From the human T2T-CHM13v2.0 reference genome, Homo sapiens: a DNA stretch of 64,000 bases. Shown piece by piece: positions 13,040 to 15,900 of the stretch (position 1 is the first letter of the stretch; the number at the start of each line of letters is the position of its first letter). A program made the translations under genes and the position numbers. The notes under the pieces are model-generated. The model did no database searches. It was given only the letters and a program-made list of their open reading frames with translations, and was not told the DNA's origin. Location of the stretch: the NCBI RefSeq assembly GCF_009914755.1, contig NC_060945.1; one strand, given 5' to 3'.

Positions 13040-13279
13040 ATTATTATTATTTTTTTTTTTTTTTGAGAAAGTCTCTCCGCCTCCCAGGTTCAAGGGATTC
13101 TCCCACCTCAGCCTCCCGAGTAGCTGGGATTACAGGCGCATGCCACGACACCAAGCCAATTTTTGTATTTTTAGAAGAAATGGTCACCGCGTTGGCCAGA
13201 CTGGTCTCGAACTCCTGACCTCAAGTGATCTGCCTGCCTCGGCCTCCCAAAGTGCTGGGATTACAGGCATGAGCCACTG
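13040..13279 (-). mobile_element. AluS with internal deletion
   Basis: Alu sequence lacking part of the right monomer next to the poly(T). Confidence 0.88.
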
Positions 13280-14083
13280 TAATTTATTTCTTTATTCAAC
13301 ATGTAAAACATTCTTTTAAATACATCTCATGGAAACATTTGAATTCCTCCAGTTACAGGTATATTTACTGCATCTCTACTCTCTTTTGATAGTACTCTGA
13401 AGTACTTGGAGTTAGGATTTATGGTGCAAGAATTTGCAAGAAACCACAATTCAGCCCATGACAATATCCAGATGTAAACAAATGAACTTCAATATGTACC
13501 TCAACATATGTCCATGCATCTATATTGCAAATCTTTTCATGCAGATCTATGAAAAGTCTACTAGAGCTATAATGGCCTTTAGTTATATCTGCATGCAAAT
13601 TTTTGCATTGAGATCTTCACAGCAGCATTATTCATAATTGTATTAAAAAGATTGCATTAGAAAGAATTGCGTTTTCTATTTATACAGTTGCTGATTTCTT
13701 ATTTCTTTGATAAACAGGAGTTGAATTTTATACAAATCATGGCTTTTTTTGTGTAAGATATTGAGGAAATCACTGTGAATTCAAAACGGTTCATGTTCTT
13801 AAGGAGCTGGATAGTTATTAGGTAGGCAGATACTTAGATAACTACCAGTAATAAAGATTTGCAGTAGCTAGTTATTGGAACACAGAAGAGAAAGTAGCTA
13901 ACTTTACCCTGGGTAGGTGATATAGTTTGGATATTGTCCCTGCCTGTCTCCTGTTGAATTATAATCCCCAGCACTAGAGGTGGGGCCTGGTGGAAGGTAT
14001 TTGGGTCTTGGGGGTGGAGCCCTCATGGCTTATTGCTATCTTCATGATAGTGAGTTCTGCTGAGATCTGGTCAGTTAAAAAGG

Positions 14084-14646
14084 TTCCATTTGACCCAGCA
14101 ATTCCATTACTGGGTATATACTCAAAGGATTATAAATCATTCTCTATAAAGACACATGCACACGTATGTTTATTGCAGCACTATTCACAATAGCAAAGAC
14201 TTGGAACCAACCCAAATGCTCATCAATGATGGACTGGATAAAGAAAATGTGGCACATATACACTATGGAATACTATGCAGCCATAAAAAAGAATGGGTTC
14301 ATGTCCTTTGCAGGGATATGGATGATGCTGGAAACCATCATCCTCAGTAAACTAACACAGGAACAGAAAACCAAACACCGCATGTTCTCACTCATAAGTG
14401 GGAGTTGAACCATAAGAACACATGGACATAGGGAGGGGAACATCACACACTGGAACCTGTTGGGGGGGTGTGGGGCAAGGGGAGAGAGAGCATTAGGACA
14501 AATAGCTGATGCATGTGGGGCTTGAAACCTAGATGACGGGTTGATAGGTGCAGCAAACCGCCATGGCCCATGTATACCTATGTAACAAACCTGCACATTC
14601 TGCACATGTATTCCAGAACTTAAAGTAAAAGGTAAAAAAAAAAGAA
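14084..14646 (+). mobile_element. L1PA7/8-like 3' end
   Basis: ORF2 C-terminus (MFIAALFTIAKTWNQPKC...), 3' UTR and A-rich tail. Confidence 0.93.
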
Positions 14647-15058
14647 CGTGACACCTTCCTCTCCATGACTGTCTTTCATGCTCCTGCTTTTGCCATGTGA
14701 TGTGCCTGCTCCCCTTTGCCTTTCACCATGATTTTAAGCTTCTTGAATCCCTCACCAGAAGCCGAGCAAATGTCAGTGCCATCCTTGTGCAACTTGCAGA
14801 ACCATGAGTCAATTAAATCTCTTTTCTTTATATATTACCCAGTCTCAGGTATTTTTCGTTGTTGTTTAATAAGGAAAGGATTTCACTAATTTTTGAAGCA
14901 AATAAGATTTGTGAGTTTCAAAGAAAAGGCTAACCTTCCTATATTAAATGTTTATGTCTAATGTTCCTCAATTGCAAATGCAAGTTTTGACCATTATGCA
15001 AAACAAAGTCCTGGAATTTACAACATTTTCTTGATGGTATTAACTCTTTTTTCTCTGG

Positions 15059-15144
15059 CATGCTATTGATAATAGATTAGATTCAAAAGATTGGCCGTAT
15101 TGTTCCCAGTGTCTGGCAGTATGGAATGGTTCAGGAGCTCTAAG
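15059..15144 (+). pseudogene. STXBP3: Isolated STXBP3 (Munc18c)-derived pseudo-exon with flanking intron sequence
   Basis: Translates HAIDNRLDSKDWPYCSQCLAVWNGSGAL(R/S); recalled STXBP3 is DAIDNRLDSKEWPYCSQCPAVWNGSGAVS. The 86-nt unit ends AG|gtaaaa. The upstream pyrimidine tract ends tctctgg rather than ...AG. No other STXBP3 exon was recognised in the window. Confidence 0.85.
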
Positions 15145-15272
15145 GTAAAACCTATAAGTGAAAAATCAATGAGATTTTCATTCTACAGATCAATAGTTTA
15201 AAATGGTACACAGGTACTCATATTTGGCAACTTTCTTCTTTATAGCAATGTAAGAATGCCTAGTAGAGTAGG

Positions 15273-15900
15273 GATTAGGAGAACTGGTCTTGCTTGGAAA
15301 GGTTTGAGGAGGAGAAAGTGGTTAAACAGAAAATTGAGTAATATTTTACTATATAAATGAGAGTTGAAGGAGGGCAACCAGGAGGAAAAAAAAGCATTAC
15401 GAAAAACAAGGGATGATAGAGAATGAGATGTTTCAGGGACAGTTAGTGACTCAATGTGAGGAGTGTGCAGGGTATTCGATGGAACAGTGGTGCTTAATGG
15501 AGCCCCCAAAGCAGACAGAAAATAGAACAGAAATGGCCCTGCATGCCATGCTAAAGGATTTGGAATTGATCTTGTATTCACTGGAGAGCCGCAGGAGAAG
15601 TATAATAAAGGGAACAAAAGTGGACTTCAGAATGTAGTCTGTGTGGCATGAGAAGATAAATTCAGAGCACTTTCAGAAAGAAAGCAGAAAACCCTATACT
15701 ACGGCTATTTTATTAATGCAGGGAAAAATTATGGTGTCCTGGCATAAGATAGCAGCAGTTGAGAATGAAGAGGAGGGGCTGGATTTGAGATATATTAAGA
15801 ACATTGAATCAATAGGTTGGAATGGTTGAGCAGTGGGGGATTGAGGAATTGGTGAAGAACGTAAATGAGTCAAGGATGACTCATGGATTCCTAATTTATA
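15273..15900 (-). mobile_element. L2 remnant, continuing from ~13790-13912 across the MSTB
   Basis: L2-like 'gccatgctaaaggatttggaattgatc', 'ggatttgagatatatt', 'gtcaaggatgactc'. Confidence 0.65.

What the first reader, a model, noticed from the sequence alone, without database searches (positions are those of the whole stretch)
14855..15235. Orphan STXBP3 exon with its intronic flanks captured inside an MSTB LTR
Seen: 15059-15144 encodes HAIDNRLDSKDWPYCSQCLAVWNGSGAL, bounded by a pyrimidine tract with a dead acceptor (tctctgg) and an intact donor (AG|gtaaaa). About 200 bp upstream and 90 bp downstream are non-repeat sequence. The block interrupts an MSTB LTR between 'ctcaggtattt' and 'ctttatagcaatg', and the LTR's GTAGG TSD is present at both outer ends (13913-13917, 15268-15272). 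Knowledge: the peptide matches the C-terminal region of STXBP3/Munc18c as I recall it (4 differences in 28 residues). Inference: this is neither a processed pseudogene (intron flanks are kept) nor a large segmental duplication (only one exon). It is a small genomic fragment moved after MSTB insertion. The left junction read on the - strand is ttATTAAAcaacaacgaaaaa, a possible poly(A) signal with a decayed tail. That would fit an antisense orphan L1 3'-transduction, the mechanism invoked for dispersed CFTR exon 9 copies. Double-strand-break capture is the alternative. A TSD for the insert cannot be resolved by eye.
Basis: partly seen in the sequence, partly recalled or inferred. Interest (0 to 1): 0.88.

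Follow-up and report, generated by a model that had tools for sequence, protein, structure and literature searches.

The report
Old STXBP3 exon fragment patching an LTR
A 374-base copy of one STXBP3 exon with its two intron edges sits on chromosome 21 inside an old retroviral-type repeat, with junctions that look like the patched repair of a broken chromosome rather than an L1-driven jump; it is a tidy but ordinary genomic fossil.

Summary
Window 14864-15237 is 89% identical (333 of 375 columns) to chr1:108833368-108833736, its only other match in this genome. That chr1 site is one exon of STXBP3/Munc18c (residues 484-511) with 195 bp of upstream and 93 bp of downstream intron.

The copy splits a MaLR-type LTR that carries its own GTAGG duplication at 13913-17 and 15268-72. 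In 26 of 29 other LTR copies the sequence runs unbroken through the split point. The insertion is therefore flush: no deletion, and at most 2 nt duplicated. There are 4-9 nt of filler on the left and no poly(A).

- There is no target-site duplication and no tail.
- The ATTAAA reads ATTACA in the parent and lies 0-5 nt from the end of homology.
- No L1 was found within 20 kb on the required side of the parent exon.
- An L1 fragment of similar divergence in the same LTR still keeps a 10-A tail.

The best reading is a templated patch captured at a double-strand break by end joining, like a class 2 templated sequence insertion. I date it roughly 25-50 Myr. It is a new member of a known kind, of low interest.

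The parts
13913..13917 (.). Left copy of the LTR's own 5-bp target-site duplication (GTAGG)
   Evidence: Sequence read. Homology to other LTR copies starts at 13918 in 9 of 18 alignments and within 2 nt of it in 16 of 18.
13918..14081 (+). MaLR-type (MST-like) solo LTR, first piece
   Evidence: Matches other genomic copies at 68-81% identity, up to window 14080-14084. The subfamily was not tested.
14086..14643 (+). L1 3'-end fragment inserted in the LTR, ending in a 10-A run (14634-14643). It serves as an internal control for an L1-made insertion.
   Evidence: The 39 scored copies other than itself match at 90-92% identity, out of 10468 first-look candidates. Tail and flanks were read. Other LTR copies read ...TTTAAAAG... 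at this point, an L1-endonuclease-type site.
14644..14854 (+). LTR, second piece, ending ...CAGGTATTT
   Evidence: The 39 scored copies other than itself match at 78-84% identity, out of 4635 candidates. Their matches end at query 209-216, which is window 14849-14856.
14855..14863 (.). Junction filler TTCGTTGTT. It matches neither the LTR nor, clearly, chr1. Under a gap-tolerant alignment only 14855-14858 (TTCG) is filler.
   Evidence: BLAST homology to chr1 starts at 14864. The lenient local alignment starts at 14859 with a 2-nt gap.
14864..15058 (+). Copy of the STXBP3 intron upstream of the exon, with the acceptor AG mutated to GG
   Evidence: 171 of 189 aligned bases are identical to chr1, K2P 0.102.
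15059..15144 (+). Copy of the STXBP3 exon coding residues 484-511 (mouse Munc18c numbering)
   Evidence: 80 of 86 bases are identical to chr1:108833559-108833644. PDB 3puk_A is the only real match.
15145..15237 (+). Copy of the STXBP3 intron downstream of the exon, with the donor GT kept
   Evidence: 83 of 92 aligned bases are identical, K2P 0.108. Homology ends at 15237, after which chr1 continues TCAAG and the window continues CTTTATAG.
15238..15267 (+). LTR, last 30 nt
   Evidence: In 26 of 29 other copies this sequence follows directly after the bases that end the second piece. Short-query BLAST starts at 15236-15239 in 21 of 23 alignments.
15268..15272 (.). Right copy of the LTR's 5-bp target-site duplication (GTAGG)
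   Evidence: Read. The flanks of other copies diverge right after the LTR end.

Best explanation
A double-strand break inside an already resident MaLR-type solo LTR on chr21 was repaired by end joining. The repair incorporated a 374-bp patch copied from STXBP3 on chr1: one exon with 195 bp and 93 bp of its introns. The donor locus stayed intact.

The patch was joined flush, with 4-9 nt of filler at the left junction and 0-2 nt of overlap at the right. The L1 endonuclease was not involved. This is the pattern described for class 2 templated sequence insertions.

The tools here cannot tell whether the patch was a DNA fragment or a cDNA made from unspliced STXBP3 RNA. The copy has since decayed neutrally (dead acceptor, 4 amino-acid changes) and has no sign of function.

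- Shown: the origin, the limits, the order of events and the junction anatomy.
- Inferred: the break, the end-joining route and the age of roughly 25-50 Myr.
For: (1) Origin. There is one colinear match in the whole genome, chr1:108833368-108833736, at 89% identity. That site is an STXBP3 exon: it is 27/28 identical to Munc18c residues 484-511, and the next exon, 7 kb on, matches residues 511-568 at E=2e-25 against 9e-9 for STXBP1. Sec1-family exons lie on both sides on the same strand.

(2) Flush insertion. 26 of 29 other LTR copies run unbroken through the split point; 2 lack 4 nt there and 1 is cut by another insertion. So the target lost nothing and duplicated at most the 2 nt TT at 15236-15237. 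No direct repeat links the two junctions and there are no terminal inverted repeats.

(3) No tail. Only 4-9 nt lie between the LTR and the chr1 homology, and they read TTCG(TTGTT).

(4) Control. An L1 3' fragment 214 bp away in the same LTR has comparable divergence (90-92% to its best relatives; the STXBP3 copy is about 5% per lineage). It still shows a 10-A tail and a TTTAAAAG-type target.

(5) No L1 beside the parent exon on the side a - strand transduction needs. None of 150 ORFs (of 158 of 45 aa or more) in chr1:108833737-108853736 hit a reverse-transcriptase, endonuclease or L1 ORF1 family. Four 2-kb L1 3' probes hit only chr1:108825305-108825434, 8 kb on the other side.

(6) Published criteria (PMC5110952, parts 1-2 of the text read). 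Class 2 insertions lack a TSD, a cryptic poly(A) signal and a tail. They show non-templated bases or microhomology, leave the donor intact, come mostly from transcribed DNA, and measured 73-414 bp in the experimental system. Capture of genomic DNA at breaks in mouse zygotes is reported in PMC4516963 (abstract read).
Against: - No empty allele or other primate genome could be examined, so the pre-insertion state is inferred from other LTR copies, not seen.
- The junctions carry no clear microhomology and no deletion, so nothing positively marks end joining. The case rests largely on the absence of L1 marks.
- The event is old (K2P about 0.10), and a short tail could have shrunk.
- The left junction is T-rich on the + strand, next to the LTR's own TTT, and an ATTAAA lies just inside the copy. 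This is what a decayed antisense poly(A) end could look like.
- A source L1 at the parent could have been deleted since, or could lie more than 20 kb away.
- The Pfam test missed 8 of the 158 ORFs and cannot see short or very decayed L1 pieces.
- The DNA probes covered only the last 2 kb of L1.
Confidence: 0.65

Rival explanations
1. This is an L1-driven insertion by target-primed reverse transcription of a - strand RNA that covered the STXBP3 exon. It would be either an orphan 3' transduction from an antisense L1 in the STXBP3 intron or an antisense transcript mobilised in trans (class 1 templated insertion). Its tail and duplication would have eroded since.
For: On the - strand the copy ends ...ATTAAACAACAACGAAAA, directly followed by the LTR's AAATACC. 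This gives a 5-A run and a poly(A)-signal-like hexamer at 14865-14870. The + strand flank ends in TTT, which could prime on A-rich RNA. Orphan transductions and trans-mobilised genomic pieces with exons are documented: Rozmahel 1997 and Ejima & Yang 2003 were seen only as cited references in PMC12533184.
Against: - There is no target-site duplication. The LTR is continuous across the insert in comparison with 26 of 29 copies, and no junction-spanning direct repeat was found.
- At most 2 untemplated A's remain, while the neighbouring L1 of similar divergence keeps 10.
- The hexamer is ATTACA in the parent, and chr1 homology stops 0-5 nt beyond it, not 10-30 nt.
- The target reads ATTT/CT, a poor match to the 5'-TTTT/A-3' preference quoted in PMC5110952.
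- No L1 lies within 20 kb on the needed side of the parent exon in human.
Confidence: 0.13
2. This is a replication-based template switch (FoSTeS/MMBIR type). A stalled or broken fork in the LTR would have copied 374 bp from chr1 and switched back, without a free fragment being captured.
For: The donor is intact, and the copy is a short, colinear, non-excised stretch. The junction filler GTTGTTGTT resembles the adjacent copied sequence and could be a short slipped synthesis. PMC5110952 (part 2) names template switching and break-induced repair as possibilities that remain open for such insertions.
Against: Neither junction shows the microhomology that such switches normally use (0-2 nt on the right, none clear on the left). 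The donor is on another chromosome. No further rearrangement accompanies the insert: a comparison of the whole window with 30 kb of chr1 found only this unique block plus common repeats.
Confidence: 0.12
3. This is the remnant of a larger chr1-to-chr21 segmental duplication later trimmed by deletions, or an assembly artefact.
For: None beyond the bare presence of chr1 sequence on chr21.
Against: The LTR continues exactly on both sides of the block, so the inserted piece was never larger at this site. No other chr1 homology apart from common repeats lies in the 64-kb window against 30 kb around the parent. At 89% identity with 33 substitutions and 9 gap columns, it is an old real copy, not a mis-join of reads.
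Confidence: 0.02

Closest known systems
Class 2 templated sequence insertions (TSI/TSIP; Onozawa & Aplan, PMC5110952)
   Same: It is a short (374 bp) copy of a distant, transcribed, non-repeat locus, and the donor is intact. It has no target-site duplication, no poly(A) tract and a few unassignable bases at one junction. The length lies within the 73-414 bp seen experimentally.
   Different: This one is fixed in the reference and old (about 10% diverged), not a polymorphism or a cell-line event. It has no visible microhomology or micro-deletion. RNA origin is untested.
Orphan L1 3' transductions and trans-mobilised genomic fragments (CFTR exon 9 copies, Rozmahel 1997; Ejima & Yang 2003; both only seen as citations in PMC12533184)
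   Same: An exon with pieces of both introns has been moved to another chromosome without the rest of the gene.
   Different: The defining L1 marks were tested here and not found: target-site duplication, A-tail, a signal 10-30 nt before the tail, a TTTT/A target, and a source L1 next to the parent.
Endonuclease-independent L1 insertion and capture of DNA or cDNA at breaks in zygotes (Morrish 2002 as described in PMC5110952; Ono 2015, PMC4516963 abstract)
   Same: The insertion sits at a break without a TSD or tail. Germline or early-embryo timing is required for fixation.
   Different: The inserted sequence is not a retroelement. It keeps introns, so nothing shows reverse transcription.
Nuclear mitochondrial DNA insertions (NUMTs) as break fillers (recalled; mentioned as TSIP donors in PMC5110952)
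   Same: A non-mobile DNA piece is used as filler at a break and then decays neutrally.
   Different: The donor is nuclear, from chr1.

Membership tests
L1-mediated insertion (orphan 3' transduction / class 1 TSIP) | Target-site duplication of at least 5 bp flanking the insert | tested here: not met
   The LTR is continuous across the insert when compared with 26 of 29 other copies. At most TT (2 nt) could be duplicated. No junction-spanning direct repeat was found.
L1-mediated insertion (orphan 3' transduction / class 1 TSIP) | Untemplated poly(A) tract at the 3' end of the inserted strand | tested here: not met
   The - strand reads CGAA|AAATACC, and AAATACC is LTR, so at most 2 extra A's are present. 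The right end (+ strand) reads CTTTCTT, which is templated by chr1.
L1-mediated insertion (orphan 3' transduction / class 1 TSIP) | Polyadenylation signal 10-30 nt upstream of the tail, present in the parent | tested here: not met
   ATTAAA (14870-14865, - strand) is ATTACA in chr1, and homology ends 0-5 nt after it. Which of the two is ancestral cannot be told without an outgroup.
L1-mediated insertion (orphan 3' transduction / class 1 TSIP) | Insertion at a 5'-TTTT/A-3' type endonuclease site | tested here: inconclusive
   The target on the primed strand is ATTT/CT. The T-run is present but the purine side is absent.
L1-mediated insertion (orphan 3' transduction / class 1 TSIP) | Source L1 directly upstream (in transcript sense) of the transduced segment at the parent locus | tested here: not met
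   None of 150 ORFs (of 158) in the 20 kb on that side hit an L1 protein family. L1 3' probes hit only chr1:108825305-108825434 on the other side. Only the human genome was examined.
Class 2 templated sequence insertion (break repair patch) | No TSD, no poly(A) tract, no usable cryptic poly(A) signal | tested here: met
   as described in the L1 rows.
Class 2 templated sequence insertion (break repair patch) | End-joining marks at the junctions: non-templated bases, microhomology or micro-deletion | tested here: inconclusive
   There are 4-9 nt of unassignable filler on the left and 0-2 nt of overlap on the right. There is no deletion. After about 10% divergence the filler cannot be proved untemplated.
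Class 2 templated sequence insertion (break repair patch) | Donor copied, not excised; donor from a distant, mostly transcribed locus | tested here: met
   The chr1 exon and introns are intact and lie inside a Sec1-family gene.
Class 2 templated sequence insertion (break repair patch) | RNA/cDNA intermediate (proposed for the class) | not testable with these tools
   The piece keeps introns, so splicing cannot serve as evidence of reverse transcription.
Processed pseudogene | Introns removed, several exons joined, poly(A) tail | tested here: not met
   A single exon has 195 and 93 bp of intron on its two sides.
STXBP3 (Munc18c) exon | Best match to STXBP3 rather than another Sec1/Munc18 gene, with intron flanks matching too | tested here: met
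   For the peptide, only 3puk_A matches. The parent exon is 27/28 identical to Munc18c. The next parent exon scores E=2e-25 to STXBP3, against 9e-9 for STXBP1 and 3e-5 for STXBP2. The introns are 90% identical.
MaLR (MST-type) solo LTR as host element | Homology along its length to many dispersed copies, defined ends, 5-bp flanking duplication | tested here: met
   There were 4635 first-look candidates, and the 39 scored apart from itself match at 78-84%. The ends lie at 13918 and 15267. GTAGG is present on both sides. The subfamily MSTB is not testable here, as there is no repeat library.

The most novel reading that the evidence does not exclude
The block is a tens-of-millions-of-years-old fossil of RNA-templated break repair in the primate germline. 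A cDNA made from unspliced STXBP3 pre-mRNA would have been used as a patch without the L1 endonuclease. It would have carried a whole exon with a working donor site to a new chromosome. That would be an L1-endonuclease-independent route for exon shuffling, and one that could be counted genome-wide by looking for flush non-repeat inserts inside dated repeats.
Probability: 0.2. Interest if true: 0.45.

Novelty: new member of a known kind. Interest (0 to 1): 0.25.

Why it matters
The host LTR supplies the pre-insertion sequence, so both junctions of an old, non-repeat insertion can be read to the base. That is seldom possible for fixed events. The case shows that an exon with its introns can be moved between chromosomes without the marks of L1. 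It also suggests a simple genome-wide screen: unique-sequence blocks that interrupt repeats flush. Such a screen could measure how often break-repair patches, as opposed to L1-driven copies, have added DNA to primate genomes.

For practice, the copy is 89% identical to an STXBP3 exon, and its longest exact run is 31 nt. It could cross-hybridise with probes, but it should not mislead read mapping. No function is indicated: the acceptor is dead, the copy has no annotated exon (hub table), and it has no Rfam match.

Tried and rejected
I replaced it with stop-to-stop ORFs of 45 aa or more. Eight of the 158 ORFs were left out to fit the 150 limit; all eight were L035 + strand ORFs.
- L1 probes taken from 11 loci were first used whole. 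Seven of them carried non-L1 flanks with Alu-like repeats and gave many irrelevant hits. Only the four probes with L1 homology over about 1.7-2 kb (L046, L043, L038, L045) were kept.
- A regular-expression count of unbroken LTR junctions gave 20 of 29. The pattern was poorly made, so I discarded it in favour of reading the 29 printed junctions.
- An Rfam scan of 13800-15400 found nothing at E<=1.
- A literature search for STXBP3 + pseudogene + chromosome 21 gave one paper, which was irrelevant. I found no printed description of this copy with that one search. That is not proof that none exists.
- A 19-nt similarity (14 of 19) between LTR 14831-14849 and the exon copy at 15098-15116 was considered as a possible pairing site for a template switch. 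I set it aside as a likely chance match, because it lies in the middle of the insert and not at a junction.
- I considered a transposon-type capture and rejected it, since there are no terminal inverted repeats.
- No other primate genome is available in these tools, so the empty-site test and the dating by presence or absence could not be run.

Full report
**What is there**

The + strand ORF at 15044-15148 contains HAIDNRLDSKDWPYCSQCLAVWNGSGAL. Searched against all PDB chains, it matches a single sequence at E<=10. That sequence is 3puk_A, syntaxin-binding protein 3 (mouse Munc18c), residues 484-511, E=6.2e-12, 23 of 28 identical.

A DNA search of the window's own assembly with 14855-15235 found two places only: the window itself and chr1:108833368-108833734 on the + strand, at 89% identity, E=9.7e-131. 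A local BLAST fixes the colinear block at window 14864-15237 against chr1:108833368-108833736, with 333 of 375 columns identical and 7 gap columns.

**The parent**

The chr1 block holds an intact exon...CCTTAG|GAT...GTAAG|GTAAAT. Its translation is 27 of 28 identical to Munc18c 484-511, E=9e-15. Seven kilobases further on the same strand, an ORF matches Munc18c 511-568 at E=2e-25, against 9e-9 for STXBP1 and 3e-5 for STXBP2. Pfam Sec1 exon matches lie on both sides, at chr1:108812596-108812742 and 108840731-108840889, both on the + strand.

The parent is therefore STXBP3, and the copied exon is the one directly before the exon coding residues about 512-565. The copy carries 195 bp of the upstream intron, the 86-bp exon and 93 bp of the downstream intron. 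It is not a processed pseudogene.

**The host**

The block interrupts a repeat with 4635 first-look candidates in the genome; the 39 scored copies other than the window's own are 78-84% identical.

- Homology to other copies starts at 13918 in 9 of 18 alignments, and within 2 nt of it in 16 of 18.
- Homology stops at 15267, where the flanks of other copies diverge.

By its ends and its 5-bp duplication this is a MaLR-type solo LTR. That family assignment is from recall, and the subfamily name MSTB could not be tested.

The LTR is in three pieces: 13918-14081, about 14644-14854, and 15238-15267. The first gap is filled by an L1 3' fragment (14086-14643). The second is filled by the STXBP3 block.

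**The junctions**

I read the same point in 29 other LTR copies. In 26 of them the last 30 nt follow directly after the bases that end the second piece. Two lack 4 nt there, and one is cut by another insertion. The target therefore lost nothing.

- **Right junction.** chr1 homology runs to 15237 (...GGCAACTTTCTT), after which chr1 continues TCAAG and the window continues with the LTR. The two T's at 15236-15237 could belong to either, because short-query alignments to other LTR copies start at 15236 or 15237 in 15 of 23 cases. The overlap or duplication is thus 0-2 nt.
- **Left junction.** The LTR ends at 14854 (...CAGGTATTT) and BLAST homology to chr1 begins at 14864. A gap-tolerant alignment moves the start to 14859 at the price of a 2-nt gap. 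This leaves 4 to 9 nt (TTCG or TTCGTTGTT) that match neither partner.

A repeat search over 14825-15270 found no direct repeat linking the two junctions and no inverted repeats at the ends of the insert.

**Testing the L1 reading**

The published marks of L1-made templated insertions are a duplication of at least 5 bp, a tail of 10-40 A, a signal 10-20 nt (the abstract says 10-30 nt) before the tail, and a 5'-TTTT/A-3' target (PMC5110952, parts 1-2 read). Here:

- The duplication is 0-2 nt.
- On the - strand the junction reads CGAA followed by AAATACC, which is LTR, so at most two A's are untemplated.
- The hexamer ATTAAA (14870-14865, - strand) reads ATTACA in the present chr1 sequence, and chr1 homology ends 0-5 nt beyond it.
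- The target reads ATTT/CT.
- The model also needs a - strand L1 at higher chr1 coordinates than the exon. In chr1:108833737-108853736, 150 of the 158 stop-to-stop ORFs of 45 aa or more were scanned against Pfam. None hit a reverse transcriptase, an endonuclease or L1 ORF1. The only real hit was the Sec1 exon.
- Four 2-kb L1 3' probes taken from other loci hit the 30 kb around the exon only at chr1:108825305-108825434 (- strand). That is 8 kb on the other side, from where read-through would run away from the exon.

**An internal control**

The L1 fragment 214 bp away in the same LTR is 90-92% identical to its 39 best-scoring relatives. That suggests about 4-5% decay of its own, close to the roughly 5% per lineage of the STXBP3 copy. 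It still ends in ten A's (14634-14643). It also sits where other LTR copies read TTTAAAAG, with AAAAG-like bases on both sides. L1 marks of about this age are thus still legible at this very site. This is one control only, and its relatives were selected for high identity.

**Age**

- Introns: 254 of 281 aligned bases identical, K2P 0.103 +/- 0.020.
- Exon: 6 differences in 86 bases.
- All 4 amino-acid differences lie on the chr21 side, since chr1 agrees with mouse at those positions.
- Only 2 of the 33 substitutions are in a CpG context.

Halving the intron distance gives about 0.05 per lineage. With neutral rates of about 1-2.2e-9 per site per year (recalled, not computed here), this is roughly 25-50 Myr, with a wide error. 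The LTR is older, since its best pairwise identity is 84%.

**Mechanism**

The anatomy meets the published description of class 2 templated sequence insertions. The features are a flush insert, a few unassignable bases at one junction, no tail, an intact donor inside a gene, and a length of 374 bp. Class 2 insertions are read as patches used in end-joining repair of a double-strand break in the germline or early embryo, and experimental ones measured 73-414 bp (PMC5110952). Capture of genomic DNA, retroelement DNA and cDNA at breaks in mouse zygotes is reported in PMC4516963 (abstract read).

I give this reading 0.65. An L1-driven event with eroded marks keeps 0.13. A replication-based template switch keeps 0.12; it is weakened by the lack of junction microhomology and by the interchromosomal donor. 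A trimmed larger duplication or an artefact gets 0.02. The rest is unassigned. Whether the patch was DNA or cDNA from unspliced RNA cannot be told, because a piece with introns carries no mark of reverse transcription.

**What speaks against my reading**

The case against L1 is largely negative evidence in a single genome:

- No empty allele was seen.
- No outgroup polarises ATTAAA against ATTACA.
- The T-rich left junction is what a shrunken antisense tail would look like.
- A source L1 could have been lost or could lie beyond 20 kb.
- The junctions show no positive end-joining signature such as clear microhomology or a deletion.

**Function and novelty**

The acceptor AG is GG in the copy and the donor is kept. 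The hub's gene table lists no exon here. Rfam finds nothing. The piece looks like neutral DNA.

One literature search for STXBP3 with pseudogene and chromosome 21 gave a single irrelevant paper, so I saw no earlier description of this copy. The kind of event is known. I rate it a new member of a known kind and of low interest. It is a clean teaching example, and it points to a feasible genome-wide count of such patches.

Noticed in passing
window 14086-14643 (+), flanks 14070-14085 and 14644-14650: An L1 3'-end fragment sits inside the same LTR. It has a 10-A tail and a target that reads TTTAAAAG in other LTR copies, and it is 90-92% identical to its best relatives. I used it as a control, but its subfamily and exact duplication were not worked out.
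   Followed up: partly
window 14831-14849 and 15098-15116: A 19-nt stretch of the LTR just left of the junction matches 14 of 19 bases of a stretch in the middle of the copied exon. This is probably chance. I did not test it as a possible pairing site.
   Followed up: no
window 14865-14870 versus L002 1502-1507 (chr1:108833369-108833374): The copy reads TTTAAT (ATTAAA on the - strand) where the parent reads TGTAAT (ATTACA). Which one is ancestral cannot be decided without another species.
   Followed up: partly
L033 1569-1698 (chr1:108825305-108825434, - strand): This is the only L1-like stretch found within 30 kb around the parent exon. It is weak (69-78% identity over 52-134 nt) and lies on the side from which read-through would run away from the exon.
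   Followed up: partly
window 13088-13280 and L002 1-176, 3235-3367: Alu-like repeats (named from recall) are shared between the window and the chr1 locus at 75-83% identity. They are unrelated to the STXBP3 block.
   Followed up: no
window 14855-14867: The left junction holds a small GTT GTT GTT run that has no counterpart in chr1 (which reads TTGGTGT). It could be slipped synthesis during repair or a later microsatellite-type expansion.
   Followed up: no
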